The notes under the pieces are model-generated. The model saw only the letters and a list, made by a program, of their open reading frames with translations, had not been told where the DNA came from and searched no databases. A DNA stretch of 64,000 nt from Candidatus Marinacidobacterales bacterium (GTDB lineage: Bacteria; Acidobacteriota; Vicinamibacteria; Marinacidobacterales; SMYC01): assembly GCA_965237955.1 (NCBI GenBank), contig OZ250169.1, forward strand, positions 3,712,001-3,776,000, given 5' to 3'. Position numbers and translations under genes: made by a program. Of this stretch, positions 20,064-37,305 are shown one piece after another (the stretch's first letter is position 1; every line of letters begins with the position of its first letter).

Positions 20064-21490
20064 TTGAAGGTTCGAGGTGGTGGCGGCTCCTGACACATGG
20101 TTTACCCGACTTTGGCGTGCTTGTCGAGCGCTTGATTCTCAGTGACCTCCGCTAACTTCGCTTCGAGGATCGGTAGCGATTGGTATCCAATGATACGACG
20201 GAAATTTTTCTCCGTGGCGAGCAGAGCCGAAGCGGCCCATCTCAGAACCATCTTGCCATTGCGCCAGCGGGTGACGCGACGGGTACGACCTCGCGCACCG
20301 CTGAAGCACGACTCGATGATGTTCGTCGATCCAAGGCAGCGTTTCAGAGATGCGGGGAGGTCGAGCTCGTTGATGGTGAACATCTCGTCGAGCCCCTCCC
20401 GGATGCTCTCCGCCGCCGAGGGGTAGTCGTCCTCGAGCCACTTCGCCTGTTGCTCCAACCGCGCTTTGCCCTTCTTTGCTGGGAGCTGCCAGGCCGAACG
20501 CAGGCTCGCTTGCACTTGCGGCTTCAGCTCCTGCGGCAGATAACCGAGCACATTGCGCTCCTTGTGCTTCCTGCAACGCTGAACCTTGTTGTGGGTACCG
20601 AACACAGCGTCGACGGCGAGCCGTAGCGCCTTGGAGCCATCGATCACGAACAGCCGACACCGCTCTGGGCTCAGGCCTCGTTCGACCAGGTCCTCCAGCA
20701 GCGCCTTGCACACTATCTGGTTCTCCGATGCTCCATCCCGAAGCCCCAGAACATGCTTGTATCCCTCTGTATCTACGCCGATTGCCGCCAGCGCGTGGTG
20801 CTCGCCGAAGCGAATCCCGTCCAGGTACACGACCGCGATCTCCAGCTCGTCCAGCGGATGCTCCATCAGCCCCTGCAACTGCTCCGCGCTTGCTTCCACG
20901 AACTCACGGCTCACCTCGCTCTTGCTAACCCCTACCGTCTCCGCCATCTCGGGAAGAACCGACGCGTACTTGCGCGTCGACACACCCAGCATCAGGATTT
21001 CCCAGATGCGTTGGCTCAGCCGAGACGAGTTGTTCACCGCTTCGTAGGCAGGAATCGCAACCTCCCCTCCCTCTGCCTTTCCCTTACGCCGCAGACGTGG
21101 CCGGCTCACTCTCAACTTCCGCTCCGCAAGGCTTACTACGCCACCCTGCCGGCCGTGCCAGCGAACATCGCTACCCTTCTTCCCCGGGTGTTTCTCCCCA
21201 GCCACACTTTGGGCTGACAGATCCAAGACCGCTTCGATCGTCGCTCGGCCAGCAACGTCGATCACTTCGTCGATCGCTATCTCGGTTCGCTCAATCGCAT
21301 CCAAGAACGGCAACAGAGCTTGCCCCTTCGAGCTCAGTATCTCTCGAAGCTTCTTCCTGTTCTTCGCATCGATGATTTGGTGATTTGACATCGTGGTGGC
21401 TCCTTTCTTTTTCCTTCACAGCCGGATTCTATCGAACCCGGCCTTAGGAGCCGCCACTCCTAACCTTCAACTATCTCAGGGGCATCTCCC
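20045..21490 (-). mobile_element. IS256-family element
   Basis: Imperfect terminal IRs (GGGAGGTGCCCC..ATAGTTGAAGGTT..GGCGGCTCCT); target duplication GGAGCA (CCGGAGCA if the right end is 21488). Confidence 0.9.
20102..21391 (-). CDS. IS256 (mutator-type) transposase
   Basis: GVSTR, YLDG, IDGSKAL, QRC..HK.RN and STN.IES motifs. Confidence 0.93.
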   Translation of the reverse strand: MSNHQIIDAKNRKKLREILSSKGQALLPFLDAIERTEIAIDEVIDVAGRATIEAVLDLSAQSVAGEKHPGKKGSDVRWHGRQGGVVSLAERKLRVSRPRLRRKGKAEGGEVAIPAYEAVNNSSRLSQRIWEILMLGVSTRKYASVLPEMAETVGVSKSEVSREFVEASAEQLQGLMEHPLDELEIAVVYLDGIRFGEHHALAAIGVDTEGYKHVLGLRDGASENQIVCKALLEDLVERGLSPERCRLFVIDGSKALRLAVDAVFGTHNKVQRCRKHKERNVLGYLPQELKPQVQASLRSAWQLPAKKGKARLEQQAKWLEDDYPSAAESIREGLDEMFTINELDLPASLKRCLGSTNIIESCFSGARGRTRRVTRWRNGKMVLRWAASALLATEKNFRRIIGYQSLPILEAKLAEVTENQALDKHAKVG

Positions 21491-21641
21491 GGAGCATTAG
21501 TCGACCCGTTAGATCCAATTGCCGTCATCCAGGTACAAAGCACCGCTGGCGGGAAAATCCCAGCCGAATCAGAGCATTGAAAACGGCTTCGCGCCTCTCA
21601 GCCTGAGCCACATTCAATCGAAGCTCCGGGAGGCGGTGCGT

Positions 21642-21797
21642 ATTCCGGGGCATCGTGAACGCAGATTCCAGCCGAAGGTGAACATCCATTCCAAAGCATC
21701 GTGAACACGGATTCCGGGGATCGTGAACATCGATTCCGGGGAAGGTGAACACGGATTCCAGGCAACGTGAACGCCGGTTCCGGCATCGCGAACGCTC
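21642..21797 (+). repeat. Seven 21-23 bp subterminal repeats of the IS21 left end
   Basis: ATTCC-N7-8-GTGAAC-N4 units in tandem; about 3 inverted copies at the right end (about 24388-24458). Confidence 0.88.
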
Positions 21798-21856
21798 ATC
21801 GATAGCACGTTTCAAGGCAACTCTAGGTCGTACCCGGAAGGAGGACGATCTAGGAA

Positions 21857-23292
21857 ATGGCAGCTAAGAGGTTATCGATGAGAAAAATACGAGAGGTTCT
21901 AAGGTTAAAGTACGAGCTGGGTTTTACTCACCGCATGATCGCAAAGGCACTTCGCGTGGCGGTTGGAACGGTGAGTGAGTACCTGGCCAAGGCGAAGAAG
22001 GGTGGTCTGAGCTGGCCGCTCCCGGAGGAGCTGAGCGAAGGGGAGCTGGAGGCAGGGCTGTTTCCGCCGCCGGGCTCGTCTGGCGCACGGCCGGGTCTGG
22101 ACTATGCCCACATCCACGAGGAGCTGAGGCGTCACCGAGAGCTGACGTTGCTGCAGCTGTGGGTGGAGTACGCGGAGAATAAGCCGGGAGCGTACGGCTA
22201 CAGCCGTTATTGCGAGCTGTACGGTCAATGGAGCTGTTCGTCGGGACGTTGGGCGCGAGCAGTTACACCTACGTCGAAGCGACACTGAACCAGTCGCTGG
22301 AATCGTGGGCGAAGGCCCATAAGGGGATGTCGGATTACTTCGGTGGCAGTACGGAGATCTGGGTTCCGGACAACTTGAAGAGCGGCGTGGATTTGGTGGA
22401 CCGTTACGAGCCAGGGATCAACCGGACGTACGAAGAGCTGGCGACGCATTACGGTGCGGTTGTGGTCCCGGCTCGGGTGTTCAAGCCGAAAGACAAAGCG
22501 AAGGTGGAGTCGGCAGTGCAGGTGGCGCAGCGCTGGATCCTGGCGGTGCTTCGTCATCGCACGTTCTTCAGCCTGGCGGAACTGAACGAAGCCATCTGGG
22601 AGAAGTTAGAGGTCCTGAATGCGCGTCCGATGCAGAAGCTCGGTGTGAGTCGGCGGGAGTTGTACGAAAGGCTAGACCGGCCCGTACTGAAACCGCTACC
22701 GCAGGAGAGCTACGAGTTATCGACGTGGAAGCGGTGCAGAGTGAACATCGACTACCACGTGGAGGTGGAGAACAACTTGTACAGCGTTCCCTATCAGCTC
22801 ATTCACGAGAAAGTCGAGGCACGGGTGACGGCCTCGGTGGTGGAGGTCCTGTTCAAGGGAAAGCGCGTCGCGTCGCATCCCCGCAAGAAAGGAAAGGGGC
22901 ACTACTCCACGAACCCGGAGCATATGCCACGTTCGCATCGGGAGCACCTGGAGTGGACGCCGTCGCGGCTGCTCCACTGGGCGGAGCAGTCAGGTCGCGC
23001 CACGGGAAGGCTGGTTGCGGGGATTCTAGAGAGTCGGCCTCACCCGGAGCAGGGATTTCGCTCTTGCCTGGGAGTCATGCGACTAGGCAGCCGCTGGGGC
23101 AGTGAGCGTCTCGAGGCCGCTTGCGCACGAGCGGAAGCTTTGAGCTCTTACAGCTATCGCACGGTGAAAAACATTCTCTCGGCTGGTCTGGATCGTGTGG
23201 TGCTCGAATCGGACGCCGAAGCGAAACCGCGAGAGGAGCACGAGAACATCCGAGGCGCGGATCACTACGAAGGAGGAGAGTCCCGATGCTGA
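21857..23292 (+). pseudogene. istA: IstA transposase with internal deletion and frameshift
   Basis: N-terminal HTH ORF 21857-22288 and core ORF meet out of frame at CGGTCAATGG (about 22222-22231); the segment with the first catalytic Asp is missing. Confidence 0.85.
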
Positions 23293-24044
23293 CACCCGAA
23301 ACGATAGAAAAGATGAACGCCATGAAGTTGTTCGGCTTGGTGTCCGCGTTCGAAACCCAGTTGAGCTCGAGCGAATACAAGGAGCTGAGCTTCGAGGAAC
23401 GTGTGGGACTCCTGGTCGATGCCGAGTGGACCGCCCGCGAACAGCGTAAGCTTTCTCGACGACTGCGAGCGGCAAAGCTCCGCTATCCGGCATGTTTGGA
23501 GAACGTGAACTTCCAAGCGCCTCGAGGCTTAAACCGCGAACAGATCTTGAGCCTGGGCAACTGCCGCTTTGTCGGTGAGCGCCATAACCTGCTCATCACC
23601 GGCCCGACGGGGATTGGCAAATCGTTCTTGGCTTGCGCCTTCGTGGAGCGGGCCTGTCGTCGCGGCTTCACCGGATGCTACGTGCGAGCACCGCGCTTGC
23701 TCCACGAGCTCGCGGTCGCTCGTGGTGATGGTTCCTACGCCCGGCTTTTGACGAAACTCGCCAAGCTGGACTTACTGGCTATCGATGATTGGCTGCTTCA
23801 CCCGCTGAAAGAATCGGAGAGACGGGATCTAATGGAGGTCATCGAAGACCGCGCCGAGCGTGGCTCCACACTCATCGCGACCCAGATTCCGCTCAAGCAG
23901 TGGCACGAAGCGATTGGCGACCCAAACCAGGCAGACGCTATCTGCGATCGCATTCTCCACAGCGCGCACCGCATCACTCTCAAAGGAGCTTCTCTGAGAA
24001 AGACCAAGGCTGCGCCAAAGGCATTTGACAACGCCGATGCATGA
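23286..24044 (+). CDS. istB: IstB AAA+ ATPase helper
   Basis: GPTGIGKS, LLAIDD and DAICDRILH motifs; GGAG RBS. Confidence 0.93.
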   Translation: MLTPETIEKMNAMKLFGLVSAFETQLSSSEYKELSFEERVGLLVDAEWTAREQRKLSRRLRAAKLRYPACLENVNFQAPRGLNREQILSLGNCRFVGERHNLLITGPTGIGKSFLACAFVERACRRGFTGCYVRAPRLLHELAVARGDGSYARLLTKLAKLDLLAIDDWLLHPLKESERRDLMEVIEDRAERGSTLIATQIPLKQWHEAIGDPNQADAICDRILHSAHRITLKGASLRKTKAAPKAFDNADA

Positions 24045-28122: not shown

Positions 28123-29319
28123 TTACCGTTCCCAGGGCATTCGAACCAAACTGCGATTGATCGAACCAAGGTTCGGCATTCCTGCCAGCCCCATGGAGAC
28201 GACCAGCTCGGCGCGCAGCATTTCCACCACCCGCTGCACGCCCACTTGACCGAAGGCCGCCAAACCCCAGACGTATGCCCGCCCGATCAGGACGGCCTTG
28301 GCGCCCAATGCCAGTGCTTTCAGAATATCGGCGCCTCTGCGGATGCCACTGTCGATCAGGACGGGAATCCTCCCATCCACCGCGTCCACGACTTCTCGCA
28401 AGGCCATCAGGGTCGGTACGGCTCCGTCGAGCGCCCGGCCCCCGTGGTTCGACACGATGATGGCCTGCGCGCCGTTGTCCACCGCCAGCGTCGCGTCTTC
28501 GGAGGTCAGAACGCCTTTGATGACCAGTGGAAGATCCGAGGCGCTGCGGAGCCAGTCGAGGTGATGCCAGGTCAGGCTCGGGCGGGTCGGCCGGAGCTCA
28601 CCGGGTCGTTGCGGGTAAAAGTGATTTCGGATGACGCGGTCCCGGTTCGGCGAGTACGGATGGTCCACCGTGACCGCCAAGGCTGTGCCCCCCGCTTCCT
28701 CGTGGCGCCGCGCCCAGCCCTGTGCCGTTGACTTCGTTGAATGGCCAAGGGTACTTGCCCACCAGACCGGGGCCTGCTCGGCTTGGTAGAGGTTGTCGAT
28801 CCAGGAAAGGGGACTGCTGATGCAGTAGATGGCCTTGCAGGCGTGGGCGCCCATGGCGGCCAACTTGTCCCCCTCCGGCACGATCCGGTTCTTGGTGGTG
28901 GGGTCCAGGAGGATGGGGAACTCCAGTTTGTGTCCCAGGAGCTCCAAGGACGTGTCGACCGTGCTGACGTCAACCATGACGCGCGGGCGCAACCATACGC
29001 GCCGGTACGCCTCCAAGTTGGCCCTCAGCGTCCATTCGTCCTCCGCGCCGCCGGCAACGTAGTTGTAGGTTGCATGGTCGAGGTTGCGCTTGGCGACCTC
29101 CTGGAACTCACGAACGTTGACCGGCCCCATTACCTTGTCACTGTGCTGAGGCGGATAGGTCCTCGGCCGCGGGACCTGGCGTTGGCTCTCGGCGAGCAGC
29201 GGCGAGGCGCCCGCAGTCAAGAACAACGTGGTCAGAAACTCGCGGCGACTTCGGTATCGCAGTCGGTCCACAAACCCGGGGCTGTGAGCTTTCTCGATTT
29301 GCTTGATTCTGTCAGTCAT
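28123..29319 (-). CDS. FMN-dependent alpha-hydroxy-acid dehydrogenase family protein with Tat signal
   Basis: SRREFL twin-arginine motif; YVAGGA, VIKG, SNHGGR.LD and DSGIRRG.D motifs. Confidence 0.88.
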   Translation of the reverse strand: MTDRIKQIEKAHSPGFVDRLRYRSRREFLTTLFLTAGASPLLAESQRQVPRPRTYPPQHSDKVMGPVNVREFQEVAKRNLDHATYNYVAGGAEDEWTLRANLEAYRRVWLRPRVMVDVSTVDTSLELLGHKLEFPILLDPTTKNRIVPEGDKLAAMGAHACKAIYCISSPLSWIDNLYQAEQAPVWWASTLGHSTKSTAQGWARRHEEAGGTALAVTVDHPYSPNRDRVIRNHFYPQRPGELRPTRPSLTWHHLDWLRSASDLPLVIKGVLTSEDATLAVDNGAQAIIVSNHGGRALDGAVPTLMALREVVDAVDGRIPVLIDSGIRRGADILKALALGAKAVLIGRAYVWGLAAFGQVGVQRVVEMLRAELVVSMGLAGMPNLGSINRSLVRMPWER

Positions 29320-29359
29320 CGCTCCATTACCTTCGTTACAAACGCCGGCTCCACTTACC

Positions 29360-29923
29360 TCACCTGGACAAGAACGAGTGTGGCGTGTGACATCCAGCAC
29401 ACGACACGGTTGCGGTGCGCGCAGGCGGCTCGGAACACTCTGCCGGCAACATGGCGTGGCATCGCTTGCACTGGATCTCGATCGCCTTCCGCTCTCGCCG
29501 TTGGTGCACCCCATGGCAAGTCCCGCAGTGAGGAGCGCGCGTTCGGGACTGCTCCAACACGAGCTTTCCGTGTTGGCTCGCGGAATACTCCGTCAGAATC
29601 GAGTCCGGGCCTTCCCCCACGTGGCAGGCACCGCACAATGCCGGAACTTCATGAGGTGCGGCGATGCGGTCCGGCTCACTACCCCCGTCGGAATCGGCGT
29701 GGCGGATACTCTCTCCATGACAGACGTTGCACCTGATTCCCTGCTCGGCGTGCGGATGTGTGAAGAATTCGTCCACGGTAACACTGTGGCAGACCACGCA
29801 CACCGGACGCTGCGCGGAAGCTTCCTGCGGTGCCATCACGATCAGGATCAGGGCCGCCAGTCCCATTGCCAGCAGCCGGAGCCCGCGTGTCACGCATCGC
29901 CGCAGGCGCCCCTCGCCTTTCAT
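29360..29923 (-). CDS. Small multiheme (6x CxxCH) cytochrome c with Sec-type signal
   Basis: CVVCH, CNVCH, CGACH, CGTCH, CKRCH, CAGCH; signal ending ASA; ATGA overlap with upstream gene. Confidence 0.85.
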   Translation of the reverse strand: MKGEGRLRRCVTRGLRLLAMGLAALILIVMAPQEASAQRPVCVVCHSVTVDEFFTHPHAEQGIRCNVCHGESIRHADSDGGSEPDRIAAPHEVPALCGACHVGEGPDSILTEYSASQHGKLVLEQSRTRAPHCGTCHGVHQRRERKAIEIQCKRCHAMLPAECSEPPARTATVSCAGCHTPHSFLSR

Positions 29924-31158
29924 GGGGTCCAGGCTCGTCGAATCAGGCTCGGCTGGATCGATCGCAGATTCGCCATGCCGGCCAGGGCCATCGCAACCAT
30001 GAGCTCCCCTCGCAGTAACTCCGTCACCCGCTGCACGCCTTCCTGGCCGAACGCGCCCAATCCCCACAGGTACGGCCGCCCGATCAGAACCGCCGTGGCA
30101 CCAAGGCCCAACGCCTTCAAGACATCCCCGCCGCGGCGGATGCCACCATCCATCAACACGGGGACTCTCCCGCTGACGGCATCCACCACTTCTGGCAAAG
30201 CGTCCAAGCTTCCCAACATGCCGTCGAGGGCCCGTCCACCGTGATTGGACACGACCACGGCCTGCGCGCCGTGCTCGACCGCGAGCCGCGCGTCCTCGCC
30301 GGTCACGATACCTTTGACGACGACGGGCAACGGTGTGGCGCCATGAAGCCAGTTCAGGTACTCCCAGGTCATGCTCGGCGTGTATGGCTGTAGCATGCCA
30401 GCCTGAAAACCGTCATGGGGTGGTCCCGAGGTCGAGTAGACGCCCGTCCGGATCGACTCCAGGTCGAACTTGTTGCGATTATCGCGGTCGTGAACCCCCG
30501 TATACGGATAGTCCACGCTCACGCAGATGGCGGCGGTCCCGGAATCCTCGGCGCGCTTCGCGAATTCCTCAGCAGACGTCTGGGTGGGCTGTCCGAGCGT
30601 GGCCGCCCACCACGTGGGGGCCTCGCCTGCCTGGCTCATCTCGTTCATCGTGTCGAGAGCGCTCACGACGTAGATGGACTTGGTGTGGCGGGCGGCAAGA
30701 GCTGCGACGCGATCGCCGTCCGGATGCAGCAGTTGCTTTCCTCCAGCGGGAGCCAGGAGAATCGGATGCTCGAACTTCTGTCCCAGCAGCTCGAGTGACG
30801 TGTCCATGGCGCTGACGTCTTTCATCACTCGGCGGCGGATCCAGAAGCGTCCGAATGCATCACGGTTCGCCCCCAGTGTCAGCTCATCTGCTGCTCCGCC
30901 GGCGATATAGTCGTACGCCGCTTTGTTGATCGTCTTTTTTGCGGCCGTCTCGAACTCGTGGAGGTTGACCGGCGCCATGATTTCGTCGCGGTAGGTGGGC
31001 GGAGAGATGGTCTCGGGCCTTTCTCTCTCCTGGGAAGCCTGGCTCAGACCAGCCAGCGGCGAAGCCGCCATGAATGTGGCAAGGTGACCAAGAGCGGAGC
31101 GGCGTGTGGTGCTCGTGATCTTATTTTCAGCGGAGGCAACCTCCGACGCTTTTTTCAT
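29920..31158 (-). CDS. FMN-dependent alpha-hydroxy-acid dehydrogenase family protein with Tat signal
   Basis: TRRSAL twin-arginine motif; YIAGGA, VVKG, SNHGGR.LD and DGGIRRG.D motifs; AAGGAGG RBS. Confidence 0.88.
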   Translation of the reverse strand: MKKASEVASAENKITSTTRRSALGHLATFMAASPLAGLSQASQERERPETISPPTYRDEIMAPVNLHEFETAAKKTINKAAYDYIAGGAADELTLGANRDAFGRFWIRRRVMKDVSAMDTSLELLGQKFEHPILLAPAGGKQLLHPDGDRVAALAARHTKSIYVVSALDTMNEMSQAGEAPTWWAATLGQPTQTSAEEFAKRAEDSGTAAICVSVDYPYTGVHDRDNRNKFDLESIRTGVYSTSGPPHDGFQAGMLQPYTPSMTWEYLNWLHGATPLPVVVKGIVTGEDARLAVEHGAQAVVVSNHGGRALDGMLGSLDALPEVVDAVSGRVPVLMDGGIRRGGDVLKALGLGATAVLIGRPYLWGLGAFGQEGVQRVTELLRGELMVAMALAGMANLRSIQPSLIRRAWTP

Positions 31159-31205
31159 CGTTTCCTCCTTCCGAGCGACGGCCACCCGAAAGATGATCGG
31201 CGAGG

Positions 31206-31234
31206 ATTCTGAACGATGTATCCACGGGTGTCAA
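31206..31234 (-). promoter_or_regulatory. Putative sigma70 promoter of the dehydrogenase-cytochrome operon
   Basis: TTGACA-N17-CAGAAT on the minus strand, about 48 bp before ATG 31158. Confidence 0.6.
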
Positions 31235-31393: not shown

Positions 31394-34264
31394 TCACGGT
31401 ACTCTCGGTCGAATCGGCGCCTTGGCCGTCGTTATTTCAACGACGGCCGTCTGAAGGCCTGAAGACTCCGCGGTCAGCTGGATCACGCCGGGCTTCTTCG
31501 TCGCCTGGATGATGACCATGGCCAGGCCGTTGAAGGCGCTGCGCTTGTCCGCCTTGTCCGGCTCGTGGCTCGAGGGGTCCCCGTTCCCCACGCCGATAAT
31601 CTCCCCGGGGCCCTCTAGACTGAATTGCACCTCGTTCCCGGCGGTCGGCACGAACCGACCCTCTGCGTCGAGGATGCTGACTTTCACCAGGGAGACATCC
31701 TCGCCGTCCGCGTTGACGCTCGAGCGGTCGGGCTCGAGTGCTATGCCGGCTGGCTCCTCCGTCGTCTCTCGCCTGGTCTCGGCGACGACCTCTCCGTCCC
31801 GGTAGCACTTGGCTTGAAGGACTCCCGGCTCCCACTCGACCTTCCACGACAGGCTCGAGTACGGCTCCAGGTCTTTTTGTCCCTGGCTCTCCCCGTTGAG
31901 GAACAGCTCGACGCTCTCGCAGTTGCTATAGCACTGGACCTCGATCGTCCTGTCGCTCTCGTCTCTGTCCGCCCAGTTCCAGTGCGGGAATAGGTGAAGG
32001 ACGGTCTCGTCGCTCCAGGCCGACTTGTAGTAGTAGTAGTCGTCCTTGGGGAAAGCGCAGGTGTCCATGAAGCCGAATTGTGAGCTGATGGCTGGCCAGT
32101 CATAGGGAGCGGGTCCGCCGCGATTGTCGATGGCATTCCAGACGAATCCGCCCGCCACGTAATCCGTCTCGGCCACCATACGCCAGCTCCGCGCCGAAGC
32201 GGTGTCGTAGGAGCTGAGATGGGCCTTCTCGTCGTCCTTGGCATAGACCCCGCGCGTCGTTCGGGCGTAGCCGGTCTCGAGGGCGACCATCGGCTGCTCC
32301 GGATTCGCAGCGTGGTATTCGCGGTAATTATCCGGGTTGAACCCCCTGACATCGATGACTTCTGTCAAGTTTGCGAGACCCGCTAATAAATTGGTCTCTT
32401 CAGGCGAGCGCGCGCCACCGGTCGGTCCCATGGGCCCGATGGTGGGACGGGTGGGGTCCCACCGCTTAACCACGTCTTGCATCGCCTTATACTGTTTCGT
32501 TGCCTCCTCGTAGCCCTGTTTCAAACCCTCGTTGTACATGCTCCAGAGGACGATGCTGGGGTGGTTCCTGTCGCGCCGCACCAAGCTTTCCACGGTGGCC
32601 AGCACCTCCTCCGAATCACCCATATGGCGATTCTCATTCATCACCAGCATTCCCAGGCGGTCGCACGCTTCCAGCACCTCCGGGGTATGCGGGTTGTGCG
32701 AAGCGCGGAAGGCGTTCGCACCCATCTGTTTGAGCTTCTCTATCCGGTAAACGTTGATCCTGTCGGGCAGGGCGGCGCCCACTCCCGCGAAGTCATGGTG
32801 GAGGTTGACTCCGTTGATCTTCACGTTTTTCCCGTTGAGGGAGAACCCGTTCCCGTCGAAGGTGAAATACCGTACCCCCAGCGGCGTCTCGTACCGGTCG
32901 GTGACGCGCCCGCCGCTTTTTACCGTAGTCTTTACCGCATACAAGTATGGGTTCTCTAGAGACCACAGGGTCGGGTCTTGTATCGTGACGTCCTGGTTGA
33001 ATTCGTACTCCTGACCCGCTGGGATAGTCTGCTCCGCCTCGGACTCCGCCACCGTCTTCCCGTCAGTGTCGGTAACCGTGCTCGTGAGCGTGCACTCCAT
33101 CGACTCCGCGCTATCGTTGACGACGGTCGTCTGGATGTTGACCTCCGCCAGCTCGTTGGTGACCTCCGGCGAGGTGACGAAGGTCCCCCAGTGACCGACG
33201 TGCAGGGGGTCGAGCTTCGTTAGCCAGGCGTGGCGGTAGATGCCGCCGCCCTCGTACCACCAGCCCTCGTCCCAGTCCGCGTCGGCGCGCACCGTCACCA
33301 CATTCTCCCCGCCGAAGTTCGCCGCGTCGGTGATGTCGTAATAGAAGCCCGTGTAGCCGCTCCAGTGGTGACCGAGCCAATGACCGTTTACCCAGACGTC
33401 GCTATTCCGGTAGACCCCGTCGAACTCCAGCCAGATCCGCTTACCCTCGTCCGCGGCCGGGAGCTCGAAGCCGCGGCGGTACCAGCCGACGCCCTTGGGC
33501 TTGTAACCATGGTCCCTTTCGTACCAGAGCTCGCCTTCCCTTATGCCCTGGGGCTTGTCCGCCCCCTTGGGGTCGAAATCGCCCTCCACCACGAAGTCGT
33601 GGGGAACGCGGACCTCTTCCCAGCCGCTGTCGTCGAAGTCGACGGCCGCCGTCTTCACCGACCGCATCTTCGGGTCGTCTTGCCACAGGGCCGGCCTGTT
33701 GTACAGGGCCGCACCGTCGATGCCGCCGCGCCCCTCGACGTTTTCCACCAGCACCGCCAGCTCGTTCCGACCGCCATCTTCCCAGGTGTAGTTCAGATTG
33801 ATCTCGAAGGGGAAGTCCCCGCCCTCATGGTAGTAGGCTAACTCTCCGTTAACGTAGACGGTCGCGTTGTCGTCCACGGATTGAAAATAGAGCCGAGGCC
33901 TTCCGGTCGGTCCGGGCGGCAAGTCTCCGAGCTCCGTACGGAACCAGGCAAGACCCTCCTTGCCCTCGAACACGTCGCTACCCGGCTCCGTCTCCTGCCA
34001 ACCGGAGATATCGAGCCCCGGCGCCGCCATCGCTTTCGCCTCGTCCTCGCCCTTCTCGCTCGTCTTGAAGCGCCACTTGTCGATGGCCTTTCCCCGGGGC
34101 AAGGGGGTGAATCCCTCTGCCCTCCCCCGGTAGAATCGCCATCCCTCGTCCAGGAGTAGCTTCTGCCTTGGATTGTCATCCCGCGGAGCGCATGCGCTCG
34201 TTGTCAAGAATGTGGAAACGAGACCCATGGAGACACAAAGAATTAAAAAGGCTCTCGCGCTCAT
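31394..34264 (-). CDS. GH2 beta-galactosidase-like lipoprotein, copy A
   Basis: Lipobox TSAC; GWYR, LEFDGVY, EGGGIYR, RDRNHPSI, NE acid/base and ETG putative nucleophile. Confidence 0.9.
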   Translation of the reverse strand: MSARAFLILCVSMGLVSTFLTTSACAPRDDNPRQKLLLDEGWRFYRGRAEGFTPLPRGKAIDKWRFKTSEKGEDEAKAMAAPGLDISGWQETEPGSDVFEGKEGLAWFRTELGDLPPGPTGRPRLYFQSVDDNATVYVNGELAYYHEGGDFPFEINLNYTWEDGGRNELAVLVENVEGRGGIDGAALYNRPALWQDDPKMRSVKTAAVDFDDSGWEEVRVPHDFVVEGDFDPKGADKPQGIREGELWYERDHGYKPKGVGWYRRGFELPAADEGKRIWLEFDGVYRNSDVWVNGHWLGHHWSGYTGFYYDITDAANFGGENVVTVRADADWDEGWWYEGGGIYRHAWLTKLDPLHVGHWGTFVTSPEVTNELAEVNIQTTVVNDSAESMECTLTSTVTDTDGKTVAESEAEQTIPAGQEYEFNQDVTIQDPTLWSLENPYLYAVKTTVKSGGRVTDRYETPLGVRYFTFDGNGFSLNGKNVKINGVNLHHDFAGVGAALPDRINVYRIEKLKQMGANAFRASHNPHTPEVLEACDRLGMLVMNENRHMGDSEEVLATVESLVRRDRNHPSIVLWSMYNEGLKQGYEEATKQYKAMQDVVKRWDPTRPTIGPMGPTGGARSPEETNLLAGLANLTEVIDVRGFNPDNYREYHAANPEQPMVALETGYARTTRGVYAKDDEKAHLSSYDTASARSWRMVAETDYVAGGFVWNAIDNRGGPAPYDWPAISSQFGFMDTCAFPKDDYYYYKSAWSDETVLHLFPHWNWADRDESDRTIEVQCYSNCESVELFLNGESQGQKDLEPYSSLSWKVEWEPGVLQAKCYRDGEVVAETRRETTEEPAGIALEPDRSSVNADGEDVSLVKVSILDAEGRFVPTAGNEVQFSLEGPGEIIGVGNGDPSSHEPDKADKRSAFNGLAMVIIQATKKPGVIQLTAESSGLQTAVVEITTAKAPIRPRVP

Positions 34265-34301
34265 TTTGCCCCCTTCCGATCTTCCACCGTTCAGGCCCGA
34301 A

Positions 34302-37181
34302 TCACGGGACTCTCGGTCGAATCGGCGCCTTGGCCGTCGTTATCTCAACGACTGCCGTCTCGAGGCCCGAAGACTCTGCGGTCAGCTGGATCACGCCCGG
34401 CTGCTTCGTCGCCTGGATGATGACCATGGCCAAGCCGTTGAAGGCGCTGCGCTTGTCCGCCTTGTCCGCCTCGTGGCTCGAGGGGTCCCCGTTCCCCACG
34501 CCGATGATCTCCCCGGGGCCCTCTAGACTGAATTGCACCTCGTTCCCGGCGGTCGGCACGAACCGACCCTCCGCGTCGAGGATTCTGACTTTCACCAGGG
34601 AGACGTCCTCCCCGTCCGCGTTGACGCTCGAGCGGTCGGGCTCGAGTGCTATGCCGGCCGGCTCCTCCGCCGTCTCTCGCCTGGTCTCGGCGACGACCTC
34701 TCCGTCCCGGTAGCACTTGGCTTCCAGAACTCCGGGCTCCCACTCGACCTTCCACGATAGGCTCGAGTGCGGCTGCACGTCTTTTTGTCCCTGGCTCTCC
34801 CCGTTGAGAAACAGCTCGACGCTCTCGCAGTTGGTGTAGCACTGGACGTCGATCGTCTGGTCGCTTTCGTCTCTGTCGGCCCAGTTCCAGTGCGGGAATA
34901 AGTGAAGGACGGTCTCGTCGCTCCAGGCCGACTTGTAGGCGTAGTAGTCGTCCTTGGGGAAACCGCAGGTGTCCATGAGGCCGTATTGTGATGTGACGGC
35001 TGGCCAGTCAAAGGGAGCGGGCTCGCCCCGATAATCCATACCGTTCCAGACGAATCCGCCCGCGACGTAGTCCGTCTCGGCCACCGAACTCCAGCTCCGC
35101 GCCGAACCGGTGCCGTAGGAGCTGAGATAGGCCTTCTCGTCGTCCCTGGCATAGATCCCGCGCGTCGTTCGGGCGTAGCCGGTCTCGAGGGCGACCATCG
35201 GCTGATCCGGATTCGCAGCGTGGTATTCGTCGTATCTACGCGGGTTGAAACCCCTCACATCGATGACTTCTGTCAAGTTTGCGAGACCTTGTAATAAATT
35301 GGTCTCTTCAGGCGAGCGCGCGCCACCGGTCGGTCCCATGGGCCCGATGATGGGACGGGTGGGGTCCCACCGCTTGATCGCGTCCTGCATCGCTTTGTAC
35401 TGTTTCGTTGCCTCCTCGTAGCCCTGCTTCAACCCCTCGTTGTACATGCTATAGAGGACGATGCTTGGGTGGTTCCTGTCGCGCCGCACCATGCCTTCCA
35501 CAGTGGCGAGCACCTCCTCCGAATCACCCATGTGGCGATTCTCATTCATCACCAGTATCCCCAGGCGATCGGCCGCGTCCAGCACCTCCGCGGTCGGCGG
35601 GTTGTGCGCAGCGCGGTAGGCGTTCGCACCCATCTCCTTCAGCTTCTCCATCTTGTAAACGTTGATCCTGTCCGGCAAGGCGGCGCCCACTCCCGCGAAG
35701 TCATCGTGGAGGTTGACTCCGTTGATCTTCACGTTTTTCCCGTTGAGGGAGAACCCGTTCCCGTCGAAGGTGAAATACCGTACCCCCAGCGGCGTCTCGT
35801 ACCGGTCGGTGACGCGCCCGCCGCTTTTTACCGTAGTCTTTACCGCATACAAGTATGGGTTCTCTAGAGACCACAGGGTCGGGTCTTGTATCGTGACGTC
35901 CTGGTTGAATTCGTACTCCTGACCCGCTGGGATAGTCTGCTCCGCCTCGGACTCCGCCACCGTCTTCCCGTCAGTGTCGGTAACCGTGCTCGTGAGCGTG
36001 CACTCCATCGACTCCGCGCTATCGTTGACGACGGTCGTCTGGATGTTGACCTCCGCCAGCTCGTTGGTGACCTCCGGCGAGGTGACGAAGGTCCCCCAGT
36101 GACCGACGTGCAGGGGGTCGAGCTTCGTTAGCCAGGCGTGGCGGTAGATGCCGCCGCCCTCGTACCACCAGCCCTCGTCCCAGTCCGCGTCGGCGCGCAC
36201 CGTCACCACATTCTCCCCGCCGAAGTTCGCCGCGTCGGTGATGTCGTAATAGAAGCCCGTGTAGCCGCTCCAGTGGTGACCGAGCCAATGACCGTTTACC
36301 CAGACGTCGCTATTCCGGTAGACCCCGTCGAACTCCAGCCAGATCCGCTTACCCTCGTCCGCGGCCCGGAGCTCGAAGCCGCGGCGGTACCAGCCGACGC
36401 CCTTGGGCTTGTAACCATGGTCCCTGTCGTACCAGAGTTCGCCTTCCCTTTTACCCTGGGGCTTGTCCCCCCCCTTGGGGTCGAACTCGCCCCCCACCAC
36501 GAAGTCGTGGGGAACGCGGACCTCTTCCCAGCCGCTGTCGTCGAAGTCGACCGACGCCGTCTTCACCGACCGCATCTTCTGGTCGTCTTCCCACAGGGCC
36601 GGCCTGTTGTACAGGACCGTGCCGTCAATGCCGCCGCGGCCCCCGGTGTTGTGCACCAGCACCGCCAGCTCGTTCGGCCCGCCATCATTCCAGGTGTAGT
36701 TCAGATTGATCTCGAAGGGGAAGTCCCCGCCCTCATGGTAGTAGGCTAACTTCCCGTTAACGTAGACGGTCGCGTTGTCGTCCACGGATTGAAAATAGAG
36801 CCGAGGCCTTCCGGTCGGTCCGGGCGGCAAGTCTCCGAGCTCCGTACGGAACCAGGCAAGACCCTCCTTGCCCTCAAACACGTCGGTACCCGGCTCCGTC
36901 TCCTGCCAACCGGAGATATCGAGCCCGGGCGCCGCCATCGCTTCCGCCTCGTCCTCGCCCTTCTCGCTCACCTTCCAGCTCCACTTGTCGATGGTCTTTC
37001 CCCGGGGCAAGGGGGTGAATCCCTCTGCTCTCCCCCGGTAGAATCGCCATCCCTCGTCCATGAGTCGTTTCTGCCTTGGATTGTCATCCCGCGGAGCGCA
37101 TGCGCTCGTTGTCAGAAATGTGGAAATAAGACCCATGGAGACCAACAGAATCAAAAAGGCTCTCAAGCTAATTTTTCTCAT
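34302..37181 (-). CDS. GH2 beta-galactosidase-like lipoprotein, copy B (tandem paralog)
   Basis: Same motifs as copy A, offset 2908 bp; start MRKIS after GAGG. Confidence 0.9.
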   Translation of the reverse strand: MRKISLRAFLILLVSMGLISTFLTTSACAPRDDNPRQKRLMDEGWRFYRGRAEGFTPLPRGKTIDKWSWKVSEKGEDEAEAMAAPGLDISGWQETEPGTDVFEGKEGLAWFRTELGDLPPGPTGRPRLYFQSVDDNATVYVNGKLAYYHEGGDFPFEINLNYTWNDGGPNELAVLVHNTGGRGGIDGTVLYNRPALWEDDQKMRSVKTASVDFDDSGWEEVRVPHDFVVGGEFDPKGGDKPQGKREGELWYDRDHGYKPKGVGWYRRGFELRAADEGKRIWLEFDGVYRNSDVWVNGHWLGHHWSGYTGFYYDITDAANFGGENVVTVRADADWDEGWWYEGGGIYRHAWLTKLDPLHVGHWGTFVTSPEVTNELAEVNIQTTVVNDSAESMECTLTSTVTDTDGKTVAESEAEQTIPAGQEYEFNQDVTIQDPTLWSLENPYLYAVKTTVKSGGRVTDRYETPLGVRYFTFDGNGFSLNGKNVKINGVNLHDDFAGVGAALPDRINVYKMEKLKEMGANAYRAAHNPPTAEVLDAADRLGILVMNENRHMGDSEEVLATVEGMVRRDRNHPSIVLYSMYNEGLKQGYEEATKQYKAMQDAIKRWDPTRPIIGPMGPTGGARSPEETNLLQGLANLTEVIDVRGFNPRRYDEYHAANPDQPMVALETGYARTTRGIYARDDEKAYLSSYGTGSARSWSSVAETDYVAGGFVWNGMDYRGEPAPFDWPAVTSQYGLMDTCGFPKDDYYAYKSAWSDETVLHLFPHWNWADRDESDQTIDVQCYTNCESVELFLNGESQGQKDVQPHSSLSWKVEWEPGVLEAKCYRDGEVVAETRRETAEEPAGIALEPDRSSVNADGEDVSLVKVRILDAEGRFVPTAGNEVQFSLEGPGEIIGVGNGDPSSHEADKADKRSAFNGLAMVIIQATKQPGVIQLTAESSGLETAVVEITTAKAPIRPRVP

Positions 37182-37305
37182 TTTATTAACCTCGCTAAGT
37201 CTCAAATCGGCGCTCACTCCTCGTTCGCACCTTCCGCTCGCACGCTCGCTGCAGACGGCGGCGGGCCGAACTCGATGATCTATCAGTTCAACGCTGATGG
37301 CTCCT

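What the first reader, a model, noticed from the sequence alone, without database searches (positions are those of the whole stretch)
28123..31234. Periplasmic flavocytochrome-like module: two Tat FMN dehydrogenase homologues around a hexaheme cytochrome c
Seen: a promoter, Tat FMN enzyme 1, a translationally coupled six-CxxCH cytochrome (about 150 aa mature) and Tat FMN enzyme 2. Both enzymes keep NHGGR, the FMN Lys and the N-terminal Tyr, but replace the conserved WFQLY with WWAATL / WWASTL. Known: this family (glycolate oxidase, LldD, mandelate dehydrogenase, flavocytochrome b2) uses the QLY Tyr to bind substrate. Characterised bacterial members are not Tat-exported to my knowledge, and flavocytochrome b2 uses a fused heme b. 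Inference: an exported, possibly heteromeric dehydrogenase with a new substrate that passes electrons to a multiheme c wire, i.e. a bacterial analogue of flavocytochrome b2.
Basis: partly seen in the sequence, partly recalled or inferred. Interest (0 to 1): 0.7.

Follow-up and report, generated by a model that had tools for sequence, protein, structure and literature searches.

The report
Exported flavin dehydrogenase–hexaheme cytochrome pair
Many Acidobacteria carry a gene for a six-heme cytochrome c directly behind a gene for a glycolate-oxidase-like flavin enzyme that has a twin-arginine export-type signal and a remodelled active site; the pair likely oxidises an organic acid outside the cytoplasm and passes the electrons to heme, much as yeast flavocytochrome b2 does with different parts.

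Summary
On the minus strand lie a promoter-like site, FMN enzyme E1, a 6xCxxCH cytochrome with a Sec-type signal, and enzyme E2. The link is conserved. In 251 genomes of a Bryobacterales-type order, 30 of 31 family cytochromes lie directly behind such an enzyme, and 30 of 35 enzyme-bearing genomes have the cytochrome. The control was 0 of 69 ordinary QLY-type loci. Starts overlap the enzyme stop in 29 of 34 pairs. The enzymes form one clade that keeps the catalytic His/Arg/Asp/Lys, loses Tyr129 (0 of 77) and gains a near-invariant Lys and an invariant Tyr. Corrections: the conserved unit is one enzyme plus the cytochrome, so a heteromer is not required. Two relatives have both enzymes but no such cytochrome. 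A characterised bacterial member with a predicted Tat signal exists (PauLDH). The window's E1 has His at the substrate-binding Arg. Best reading (about 0.6): a periplasmic dehydrogenase for a non-standard 2-hydroxy acid feeding a bis-His hexaheme. Substrate, binding and direction are untested. The scan earlier noted a similar module with a tetraheme partner on other DNA (e1-778507); my tree places a tetraheme-linked clade as sister.

The parts
31206..31234 (-). sigma70-type promoter-like site TTGACA-17-CAGAAT upstream of E1
   Evidence: 10 of 12 matches; 2 found vs 1.0 in shuffles; both hexamers kept in L021 and L022
29920..31158 (-). E1: FMN-dependent 2-hydroxy-acid oxidoreductase homologue (412 aa), 'WW' clade, twin-arginine signal; His223 replaces the Arg164/Arg181 equivalent
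   Evidence: AGGAGG ribosome-site motif upstream
31099..31104 (-). RR codons of the E1 twin-arginine motif (TRRSAL, then an uncharged stretch)
30490..30492 (-). E1 codon 223 (His; Arg in 75 of 77 clade members)
   Evidence: a DNA-run contig over 30268-30753 has no difference
29360..29923 (-). hexaheme cytochrome c (187 aa with Sec-type signal; about 150 aa mature): 6 CxxCH plus 6 conserved extra His (56, 58, 75, 118, 140, 182)
28123..29319 (-). E2: second FMN-dependent 2-hydroxy-acid oxidoreductase homologue (398 aa), 'WW' clade, SRREFL signal, keeps the Arg164 equivalent
29242..29247 (-). RR codons of the E2 twin-arginine motif

Best explanation
This is a conserved two-gene Acidobacteriota module, here with a second enzyme copy, in which an FMN enzyme predicted to be Tat-exported likely oxidises a 2-hydroxy acid other than the usual lactate or glycolate in the periplasm and likely hands the electrons to its co-encoded six-heme cytochrome c. 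Shown: gene order, conservation, fold, kept and lost active-site residues, heme-motif count, and Tat, cytochrome-c-assembly and heme-copper-oxidase genes in the host. Inferred steps: (1) The enzyme folds with FMN in the cytoplasm and leaves by Tat; the cytochrome leaves by Sec and gets six hemes c, all probably bis-His. (2) His306 (His254 equivalent) takes the hydroxyl proton and a hydride goes to FMN, with Arg309 and Arg223 holding the carboxylate. Tyr129 is replaced by Thr/Ser, and a clade-typical Lys141 and an invariant Tyr219 probably reshape the pocket for a bulkier or more polar, perhaps doubly anionic, substrate. (3) FMNH2 is re-oxidised in two one-electron steps by the hexaheme, which relays electrons to the periplasmic respiratory chain. 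The second enzyme most likely widens the substrate range or forms an optional mixed oligomer.
For: Linkage: all 21 full-length family cytochromes found in GTDB contigs have an FMN enzyme gene directly upstream on the same strand (4 weaker multiheme hits not counted). In a separate 251-genome order sample that partly overlaps this set, 30 of 31 cytochromes are directly behind a WW-clade enzyme, and 30 of 35 genomes with a WW-clade enzyme have it. Control: 0 of 69 QLY-type loci with at least 600 bp downstream carry an ORF with 4 or more CxxCH. Start-stop overlap in 29 of 34 pairs. Export signals: both window enzymes and 93 of 120 homologues pass a TATFIND-like rule, against 47 of 4517 long ORFs of the genome. 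TatC, cytochrome c assembly, COX1 and NrfD genes are present. Catalytic core: Asp, Lys, His and Arg are invariant in 77 of 77, the second Arg in 75 of 77; the model matches glycolate oxidase with TM 0.85. Six conserved extra His for six hemes. The sister clade shares Tyr129->Thr and the new Lys and sits near a different, tetraheme cytochrome in 18 of 34 loci. Most screened family members proved to be dehydrogenases, not oxidases (PMC9670274).
Against: The enzyme does not always need this cytochrome: G503 (99% complete) and G560 (95%) carry the E1-type/E2-type tandem with no family cytochrome found in the genome, and 5 order-sample genomes have the enzyme alone. One genome (G606) has the cytochrome with no enzyme beside it. 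No fusion of the two was found. No third conserved neighbour points to a substrate or a membrane electron acceptor. The signal peptides have a short, amphipathic h-region, and 27 of 120 homologues fail the rule, some because the start was called late. The window's E1 has His at a position where R163A inactivated Hmo (PMC6677016). The linked genomes are related, so the counts are not independent events.
Confidence: 0.6

Rival explanations
1. The flow is reversed: the bis-His hexaheme delivers low-potential electrons to the flavin enzyme, which acts as a periplasmic reductase of a 2-keto acid or similar acceptor, as flavocytochrome c3 fumarate reductase does (recalled).
For: All six hemes look bis-His, which often means low potential (general knowledge). 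The best solved-structure sequence hit is chain A of 6r2q, 333 aa (E 6e-7), which I recall as decaheme MtrA. Loss of the oxyanion-stabilising Tyr could suit another direction or chemistry.
Against: No quinol dehydrogenase (NapC/NrfH type) is conserved beside the pair. The His/Arg/Asp/Lys core of the oxidising enzymes is intact. The host has a heme-copper oxidase.
Confidence: 0.15
2. The enzymes are O2-dependent oxidases or oxidative decarboxylases, and the cytochrome is co-regulated but serves another purpose, such as scavenging reactive oxygen or an unrelated relay.
For: Closest solved relatives are oxidases (glycolate oxidase, HAO1, Hmo). The Hmo Y128F mutant, which lacks the same Tyr, becomes an O2-dependent oxidative decarboxylase (PMC6677016). 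Some genomes have the enzyme without the cytochrome.
Against: It does not explain the near-exclusive placing of the cytochrome behind these enzymes with overlapping start and stop, nor a different multiheme near the sister clade.
Confidence: 0.12
3. The twin-arginine N-terminus does not export the enzyme but tethers it to the inner membrane, so it passes electrons to quinone as LldD or mandelate dehydrogenase do, and never meets the cytochrome.
For: The h-region is short and amphipathic, and 27 of 120 homologues fail the rule-based test. No SignalP run was possible.
Against: The RR pair, an uncharged stretch and a signal-peptidase-like end are kept across the clade and its sister groups. TatC is present. 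The partner has a Sec-type signal and CxxCH motifs, so it matures in the periplasm.
Confidence: 0.07
4. E1 and E2 form an obligate heteromer, with E1 partly non-catalytic, and the three genes are one fixed complex.
For: E1-type/E2-type tandems recur (G503, G560, L028, L052, P0331). This genome's E1 has lost the Arg164 equivalent.
Against: Most loci have a single enzyme plus the cytochrome. The His change is in only 3 of the 15 listed E1 cluster members.
Confidence: 0.06

Closest known systems
Flavocytochrome b2 (yeast L-lactate:cytochrome c oxidoreductase)
   Same: Same FMN TIM-barrel family (E about 1e-50 to 1fcb); predicted logic of hydroxy acid -> FMN -> heme in an outer compartment.
   Different: b2 has one fused heme-b domain (recalled) and keeps the QLY Tyr. 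Here the heme carrier is a separate six-heme c-type protein, no fusion was found, and the Tyr is gone.
Glycolate oxidase / HAO1 / 4-hydroxymandelate oxidase / lactate oxidase (HAOx family, PF01070)
   Same: Fold (TM 0.85 to 1gox), catalytic His, Arg, Asp and FMN Lys; 37-39% identity.
   Different: Tyr129/Tyr146 absent in 77 of 77 and Gln127 in 76 of 77; new Lys/Arg at the Gln81 position (75 of 77) and invariant Tyr219; export signal; cytochrome partner; below all NCBIfam cut-offs.
PauLDH (Photorhabdus australis) and SsLDH, soluble FMN dehydrogenases with predicted Tat or Sec signals (PMC9670274)
   Same: Bacterial HAOx members with predicted export signals, named dehydrogenases in that screen; PauLDH prefers S-2-hydroxyvalerate.
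   Different: They lie in the lactate-oxidase cluster, where Tyr146 is 100% conserved; no cytochrome partner is mentioned in the passages read.
Periplasmic Tat-flavoprotein plus Sec-cytochrome c dehydrogenases, e.g. flavocytochrome c sulfide dehydrogenase FccAB and gluconate 2-dehydrogenase (recalled, not tested)
   Same: Architecture: a Tat-exported flavoprotein with a co-encoded Sec-exported cytochrome c subunit.
   Different: Those use FAD enzymes of other folds with di- or triheme subunits; here it is an FMN TIM barrel with a hexaheme.
MtrA/DmsE decaheme and NrfB/NrfH-type multiheme cytochromes
   Same: Weak sequence likeness (6r2q_A E 6e-7, NrfH E 8e-6; TIGR03508 E 8e-6); paired CxxCH with extra His ligands.
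   Different: Six rather than ten hemes; no porin gene conserved beside it; a compact family of its own, with 14 proteins at E up to 1e-30 among 50%-identity representatives, some of them longer multihemes.

Membership tests
[quoted passage not shown] | (beta/alpha)8 FMN-binding fold and Pfam score above cut-off | tested here: met
   359 and 335 bits vs cut-off 24.9; Foldseek TM 0.85 to 1gox
[quoted passage not shown] | catalytic His, adjacent Arg, Asp and FMN Lys | tested here: met
   E1 H306, R309, D216, K282; invariant in 77 of 77 clade members; also in E2
[quoted passage not shown] | QLY tyrosine (GOX Tyr129, AvLOx Tyr146, Hmo Tyr128) that binds the 2-hydroxyl/keto group | tested here: not met
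   Thr in E1 and E2; Tyr in 0 of 77 clade members vs 89 of 91 outside the two derived clades
[quoted passage not shown] | second carboxylate-binding Arg (GOX Arg164, AvLOx Arg181, Hmo Arg163) | tested here: inconclusive
   Arg in E2 and in 75 of 77 clade members; His in the window's E1
[quoted passage not shown] | oxidation of an (S)-2-hydroxy acid | not testable with these tools
   needs an assay
LldD / L-lactate oxidase / MftD (NCBIfam NF033901, NF008398, TIGR02708, TIGR03966) | score at or above curated cut-off | tested here: not met
   189-228 bits vs cut-offs 376-645 for both enzymes
Flavocytochrome b2 | heme-b (cytochrome b5-like) domain fused to the flavin domain | tested here: not met
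   no b5 domain in either enzyme; the heme protein is a separate c-type gene; no fusion
Flavocytochrome b2 | FMN-to-heme electron transfer | not testable with these tools
   needs kinetics
Tat substrates | twin-arginine motif followed by an uncharged hydrophobic stretch | tested here: met
   TATFIND-like rule written from memory: E1, E2 and 93 of 120 homologues pass; background 47 of 4517 ORFs; TatC present
Tat substrates | Tat-dependent export in cells | not testable with these tools
   no SignalP/TatP tool; needs fractionation
MtrA/DmsE decaheme cytochromes | ten CxxCH motifs, TIGR03508 cut-off, adjacent MtrB-type porin | tested here: not met
   six motifs; 25.6 bits vs cut-off 192; no conserved porin neighbour
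Multiheme c-type cytochromes (c3/c7/NrfB-like) | CxxCH motifs, Sec-type signal, distal His ligands, host maturation genes | tested here: met
   (PF14522 above cut-off)
Multiheme c-type cytochromes (c3/c7/NrfB-like) | fold match to a solved multiheme | tested here: inconclusive
   apo model pTM 0.37, too poor to place

The most novel reading that the evidence does not exclude
Acidobacteriota have evolved a family of periplasmic 'split flavocytochromes'. One lineage of Tat-exported glycolate-oxidase-fold enzymes swapped the family's conserved Tyr for a Lys-containing pocket, took on a new class of substrate (possibly not a 2-hydroxy acid at all), and recruited different multiheme c wires at least twice: a hexaheme for this clade and an Ig-like tetraheme for its sister. 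It would be an unrecognised route for respiring organic acids outside the cytoplasm in a widespread, mostly uncultured group.
Probability: 0.35. Interest if true: 0.75.

Novelty: new variant of a known kind. Interest (0 to 1): 0.56.

Why it matters
The 2-hydroxy acid oxidase family is a textbook flavoenzyme family, and its only cytochrome-coupled form that I know is eukaryotic flavocytochrome b2 (own knowledge). A natural clade without the 'essential' Tyr, paired with a dedicated hexaheme, offers a direct test of what that Tyr does and of how the family chooses between O2 and heme. It is a lead to unknown periplasmic organic-acid respiration in Acidobacteriota. It is also a candidate for oxygen-independent, directly wired biosensor enzymes, a need stated in PMC9670274. 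Two genes suffice for a test.

Tried and rejected
Complex prediction of E1 + cytochrome with FMN and 3 hemes riding along: no verdict (score 0.00, controls not folded); it is no evidence either way. Cytochrome fold: apo AlphaFold model pTM 0.37; Foldseek gave nothing at E up to 0.001 and VIA-align best Z 2.2; uninformative. Fusion search: none among 34 long relatives or the best 150 representatives; P0302 was a chance motif match. The long ORFs of L032 and L200 that join enzyme and cytochrome come from frameshifts inside the enzyme gene. A fused protein of about 550 aa could still hide below the 120 rows listed. Metagenome scan with the enzyme alignment was swamped by ordinary family members and served only as control. 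Neighbour clustering over 21 loci found no third conserved gene and no substrate clue. The two GH2 genes upstream are kept only in the closest kin, where an amidase gene lies between, so a sugar-acid substrate is unsupported. Enzyme and cytochrome tree distances correlate (r 0.80), but shared ancestry explains that. Metatranscriptome contigs at 99-100% identity touch E1, the cytochrome and E2 in two runs of one study; there was no silent control and these are contigs only, so neither expression nor co-transcription is claimed. The Ser106/Trp108 region could not be aligned reliably and was dropped. A phylum-wide search at E 1e-120 was too strict. Paper searches found no description of this module; one search was swamped by HIV Tat papers, and most subscription journals are not covered. 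Look-ups of earlier findings by sequence, place and a second word set were empty.
Full report
OBSERVATION. The minus strand carries three genes in a row: E1 (31158-29920, 412 aa), a 187-aa protein with six CxxCH motifs (29923-29360) and E2 (29319-28123, 398 aa). E1 and E2 are Pfam FMN_dh members, 51% identical, and fall below every NCBIfam cut-off for LldD, lactate oxidase and MftD. A sigma70-like site at 31234-31206 is weak alone, but both hexamers recur in the two closest relatives. No minus-strand terminator was found after E2, which converges on an ABC-transporter ATPase gene. The genome is 8.13 Mb; records 89-90% identical in the cytochrome are titled Candidatus Marinacidobacterales, and the other carriers are mostly titled Acidobacteria or Bryobacterales. 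The host encodes TatC, three cytochrome-c-assembly proteins, one COX1 and one NrfD-family protein.

THE ENZYMES. Alignments to solved structures put WWAATL against glycolate oxidase FFQLY and lactate oxidase WFQIY. The E1 model (pTM 0.85) matches glycolate oxidase with TM 0.85. A FastTree of 206 sequences (midpoint-rooted, no topology test; frameshifted L032 and L200 and ORFs under 330 aa left out) gives one 'WW' clade of 77 (support 1.0) and a sister clade of 38 (0.998; together 0.992), next to 18 Tat-bearing QLY-type enzymes. In the WW clade Asp216, Lys282, His306 and Arg309 are invariant and the second Arg is kept in 75 of 77. Tyr129 is gone in all 77 (Thr 59, Ser 10, Gly 6) and Gln127 in 76. 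Position 141 is Lys or Arg in 75 of 77 (His or Gln in most of the 91 other rows, never Lys), Tyr219 is invariant, and the Tyr24 position is Phe in 42. Published roles: Tyr40, Tyr146 and Arg268 position lactate in lactate oxidase and His265 is the base (PMC4908395, passages); Tyr146 is 100% conserved in the lactate-oxidase cluster (PMC9670274, passages). In Hmo, R163A, H252F and R255A are inactive, whereas Y128F stays active and becomes an O2-dependent oxidative decarboxylase (PMC6677016, sections 3.1-3.5). So loss of this Tyr need not kill catalysis but can change the outcome. The window's E1 has His223 at the Arg163/164 position; this holds in 3 of the 15 listed members of its 21-member cluster and in a DNA-run contig. 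It is a real, lineage-limited change that may weaken E1; E2 keeps the Arg. The role of Gln127 in FMN binding is recalled, not checked.

EXPORT SIGNALS. A loose RR pattern is present in 109 of 122 sequences. A stricter TATFIND-like rule, written from memory, passes E1, E2 and 93 of 120 homologues against 47 of 4517 long ORFs of the genome; of the 27 failures, 5 lack the N-terminus and several more start late. Tat-type signals are not peculiar to this clade: many QLY-type enzymes of the phylum have them, including this genome's third paralogue, and PauLDH has a SignalP-predicted Tat signal and was assayed (PMC9670274).

THE CYTOCHROME. It belongs to a compact family: 58 hits, 57 of them at 41-89% identity over most of the length, and 14 representatives at E up to 1e-30. 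Six CxxCH motifs and six further His are conserved in 54-56 of 56 rows, which fits six bis-His hemes (inference). The nearest solved sequence is 6r2q chain A (E 6e-7), which the listing names cystathionine beta-synthase and which I recall as MtrA. The apo model was too poor for fold searches.

LINKAGE. All 21 full-length family loci in GTDB contigs have an FMN enzyme gene immediately upstream on the same strand (four weaker hits, L047-L050, were not examined). In 251 genomes drawn from the order of G575, 31 carry the cytochrome: 26 lie behind top-scoring WW enzymes, four more behind an intact, frameshifted or contig-cut enzyme (G785, G587, G727, G748), and one (G606) stands alone. Five genomes have the enzyme only (G795, G670, G736, G749, G718). 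In 301 genomes of the window's own class the cytochrome occurs in 3 and WW enzymes in 5; G503 and G560 have an E1-type/E2-type tandem without it. Control: 0 of 69 QLY-type loci with at least 600 bp downstream (of 88) have an ORF with four or more CxxCH, although one QLY-type enzyme fetched later (L225) lies behind a five-CxxCH gene. The cytochrome start overlaps the enzyme stop in frame in 29 of 34 pairs. These samples overlap and the genomes are related, so the counts show conservation, not independent trials. In several genomes the pair sits before atpI-atpB, and there either gene can be missing (L190, L197 enzyme only; L199 cytochrome only), which suggests separate losses from an ancestral pair. 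No third gene is conserved. The enzyme-cytochrome-enzyme order was seen only here and in two close relatives, so a heteromer is optional at most.

A PARALLEL MODULE. The sister clade keeps Gln127 but shares Tyr129->Thr and the new Lys (38 of 38), and an Ig-like tetraheme gene lies near it in 18 of 34 loci (some loci are short). This probably corresponds to earlier scan note e1-778507, which I matched only by description. Two different multihemes beside two sister clades are what one expects if these enzymes need a one-electron heme acceptor.

MECHANISM. Most likely (0.6): the FMN enzyme is exported folded by Tat, oxidises a 2-hydroxy acid by His-assisted hydride transfer, and is re-oxidised by the hexaheme, which relays electrons to periplasmic carriers or the oxidase. 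The remodelled pocket points to a bulkier or more polar substrate, but nothing here names it. Rivals: reverse flow as a periplasmic reductase (0.15); an O2-dependent oxidase or decarboxylase with an unrelated cytochrome (0.12); a membrane tether without export (0.07); an obligate E1-E2 heteromer (0.06).

COMPARISON AND NOVELTY. The enzymes are members of PF01070 by fold and catalytic core but fail the conserved-Tyr feature and all named subfamily cut-offs. The module works like flavocytochrome b2 but is not one (no fused heme b). Its layout recalls Tat-flavoprotein plus cytochrome c dehydrogenases such as FccAB (recalled). Nine paper searches found no description of it; a 2026 preprint on Acidobacteriota multihemes has no 'hexaheme' or 'hydroxy acid' passage (10.64898/2026.05.27.727921, passages; supplements not seen). 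Verdict: a real, conserved, apparently undescribed variant of a known kind, easy to test, with function inferred from context; interest 0.56.

Noticed in passing
L204-L238 (e.g. L206 2757-5316, L234 2676-5202): Sister clade of twin-arginine FMN enzymes (WWQxTTG type; Tyr129->Thr, new Lys) lies near a different, Ig-like four-CxxCH cytochrome in 18 of 34 loci.
   Followed up: partly
L225 2362-4086 (-): A twin-arginine QLY-type FMN enzyme directly downstream of a five-CxxCH cytochrome (c7/c3-like by Pfam): possibly a third enzyme-multiheme pairing.
   Followed up: no
L161 11599-13782 (-) (G503): The E1-type/E2-type tandem that lacks the hexaheme is preceded on the same strand by a cytochrome c-PQQ dehydrogenase fusion, a possible substitute electron acceptor.
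   Followed up: partly
window 31394-37217 (-): Two tandem, highly similar GH2 glycosidase genes with lipoprotein-like signals upstream of E1; in the two closest relatives a twin-arginine amidase gene lies between them and E1, and it is missing here.
   Followed up: partly
window 20102-24044: Insertion-sequence-like genes (a transposase on the minus strand and an IstA/IstB-like set) split the branched-chain-type ABC operon, which is uninterrupted in L021 and L022; named from the translations, not by a family search.
   Followed up: no
L025 4933-14005 (G000 C1 about 4.261-4.270 Mb): The genome's third FMN enzyme (QLY-type, twin-arginine) sits among proline dehydrogenase, DHDPS-family, aconitase X, SNF transporter, ornithine cyclodeaminase and LarA-family genes, suggestive of hydroxyproline or 2-hydroxy acid catabolism.
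   Followed up: partly
L182, L188, L189, L190-L193, L197, L199, L046: In a subset of Bryobacterales-type genomes the module lies just upstream of the atpI-atpB genes; either partner can be missing there.
   Followed up: partly
L032 6676-8391 and L200 1903-3561: Frameshifts inside the enzyme gene put its N-terminal part in frame with the cytochrome and give false-looking fusion ORFs; probably assembly errors or broken genes.
   Followed up: partly
G000 C1 2147175-2150000 (-), near the COX1 gene at 2144688-2146127: A 941-aa ORF with eight CxxCH motifs lies about 1 kb upstream of the only heme-copper oxidase subunit I found: a possible electron entry point.
   Followed up: no
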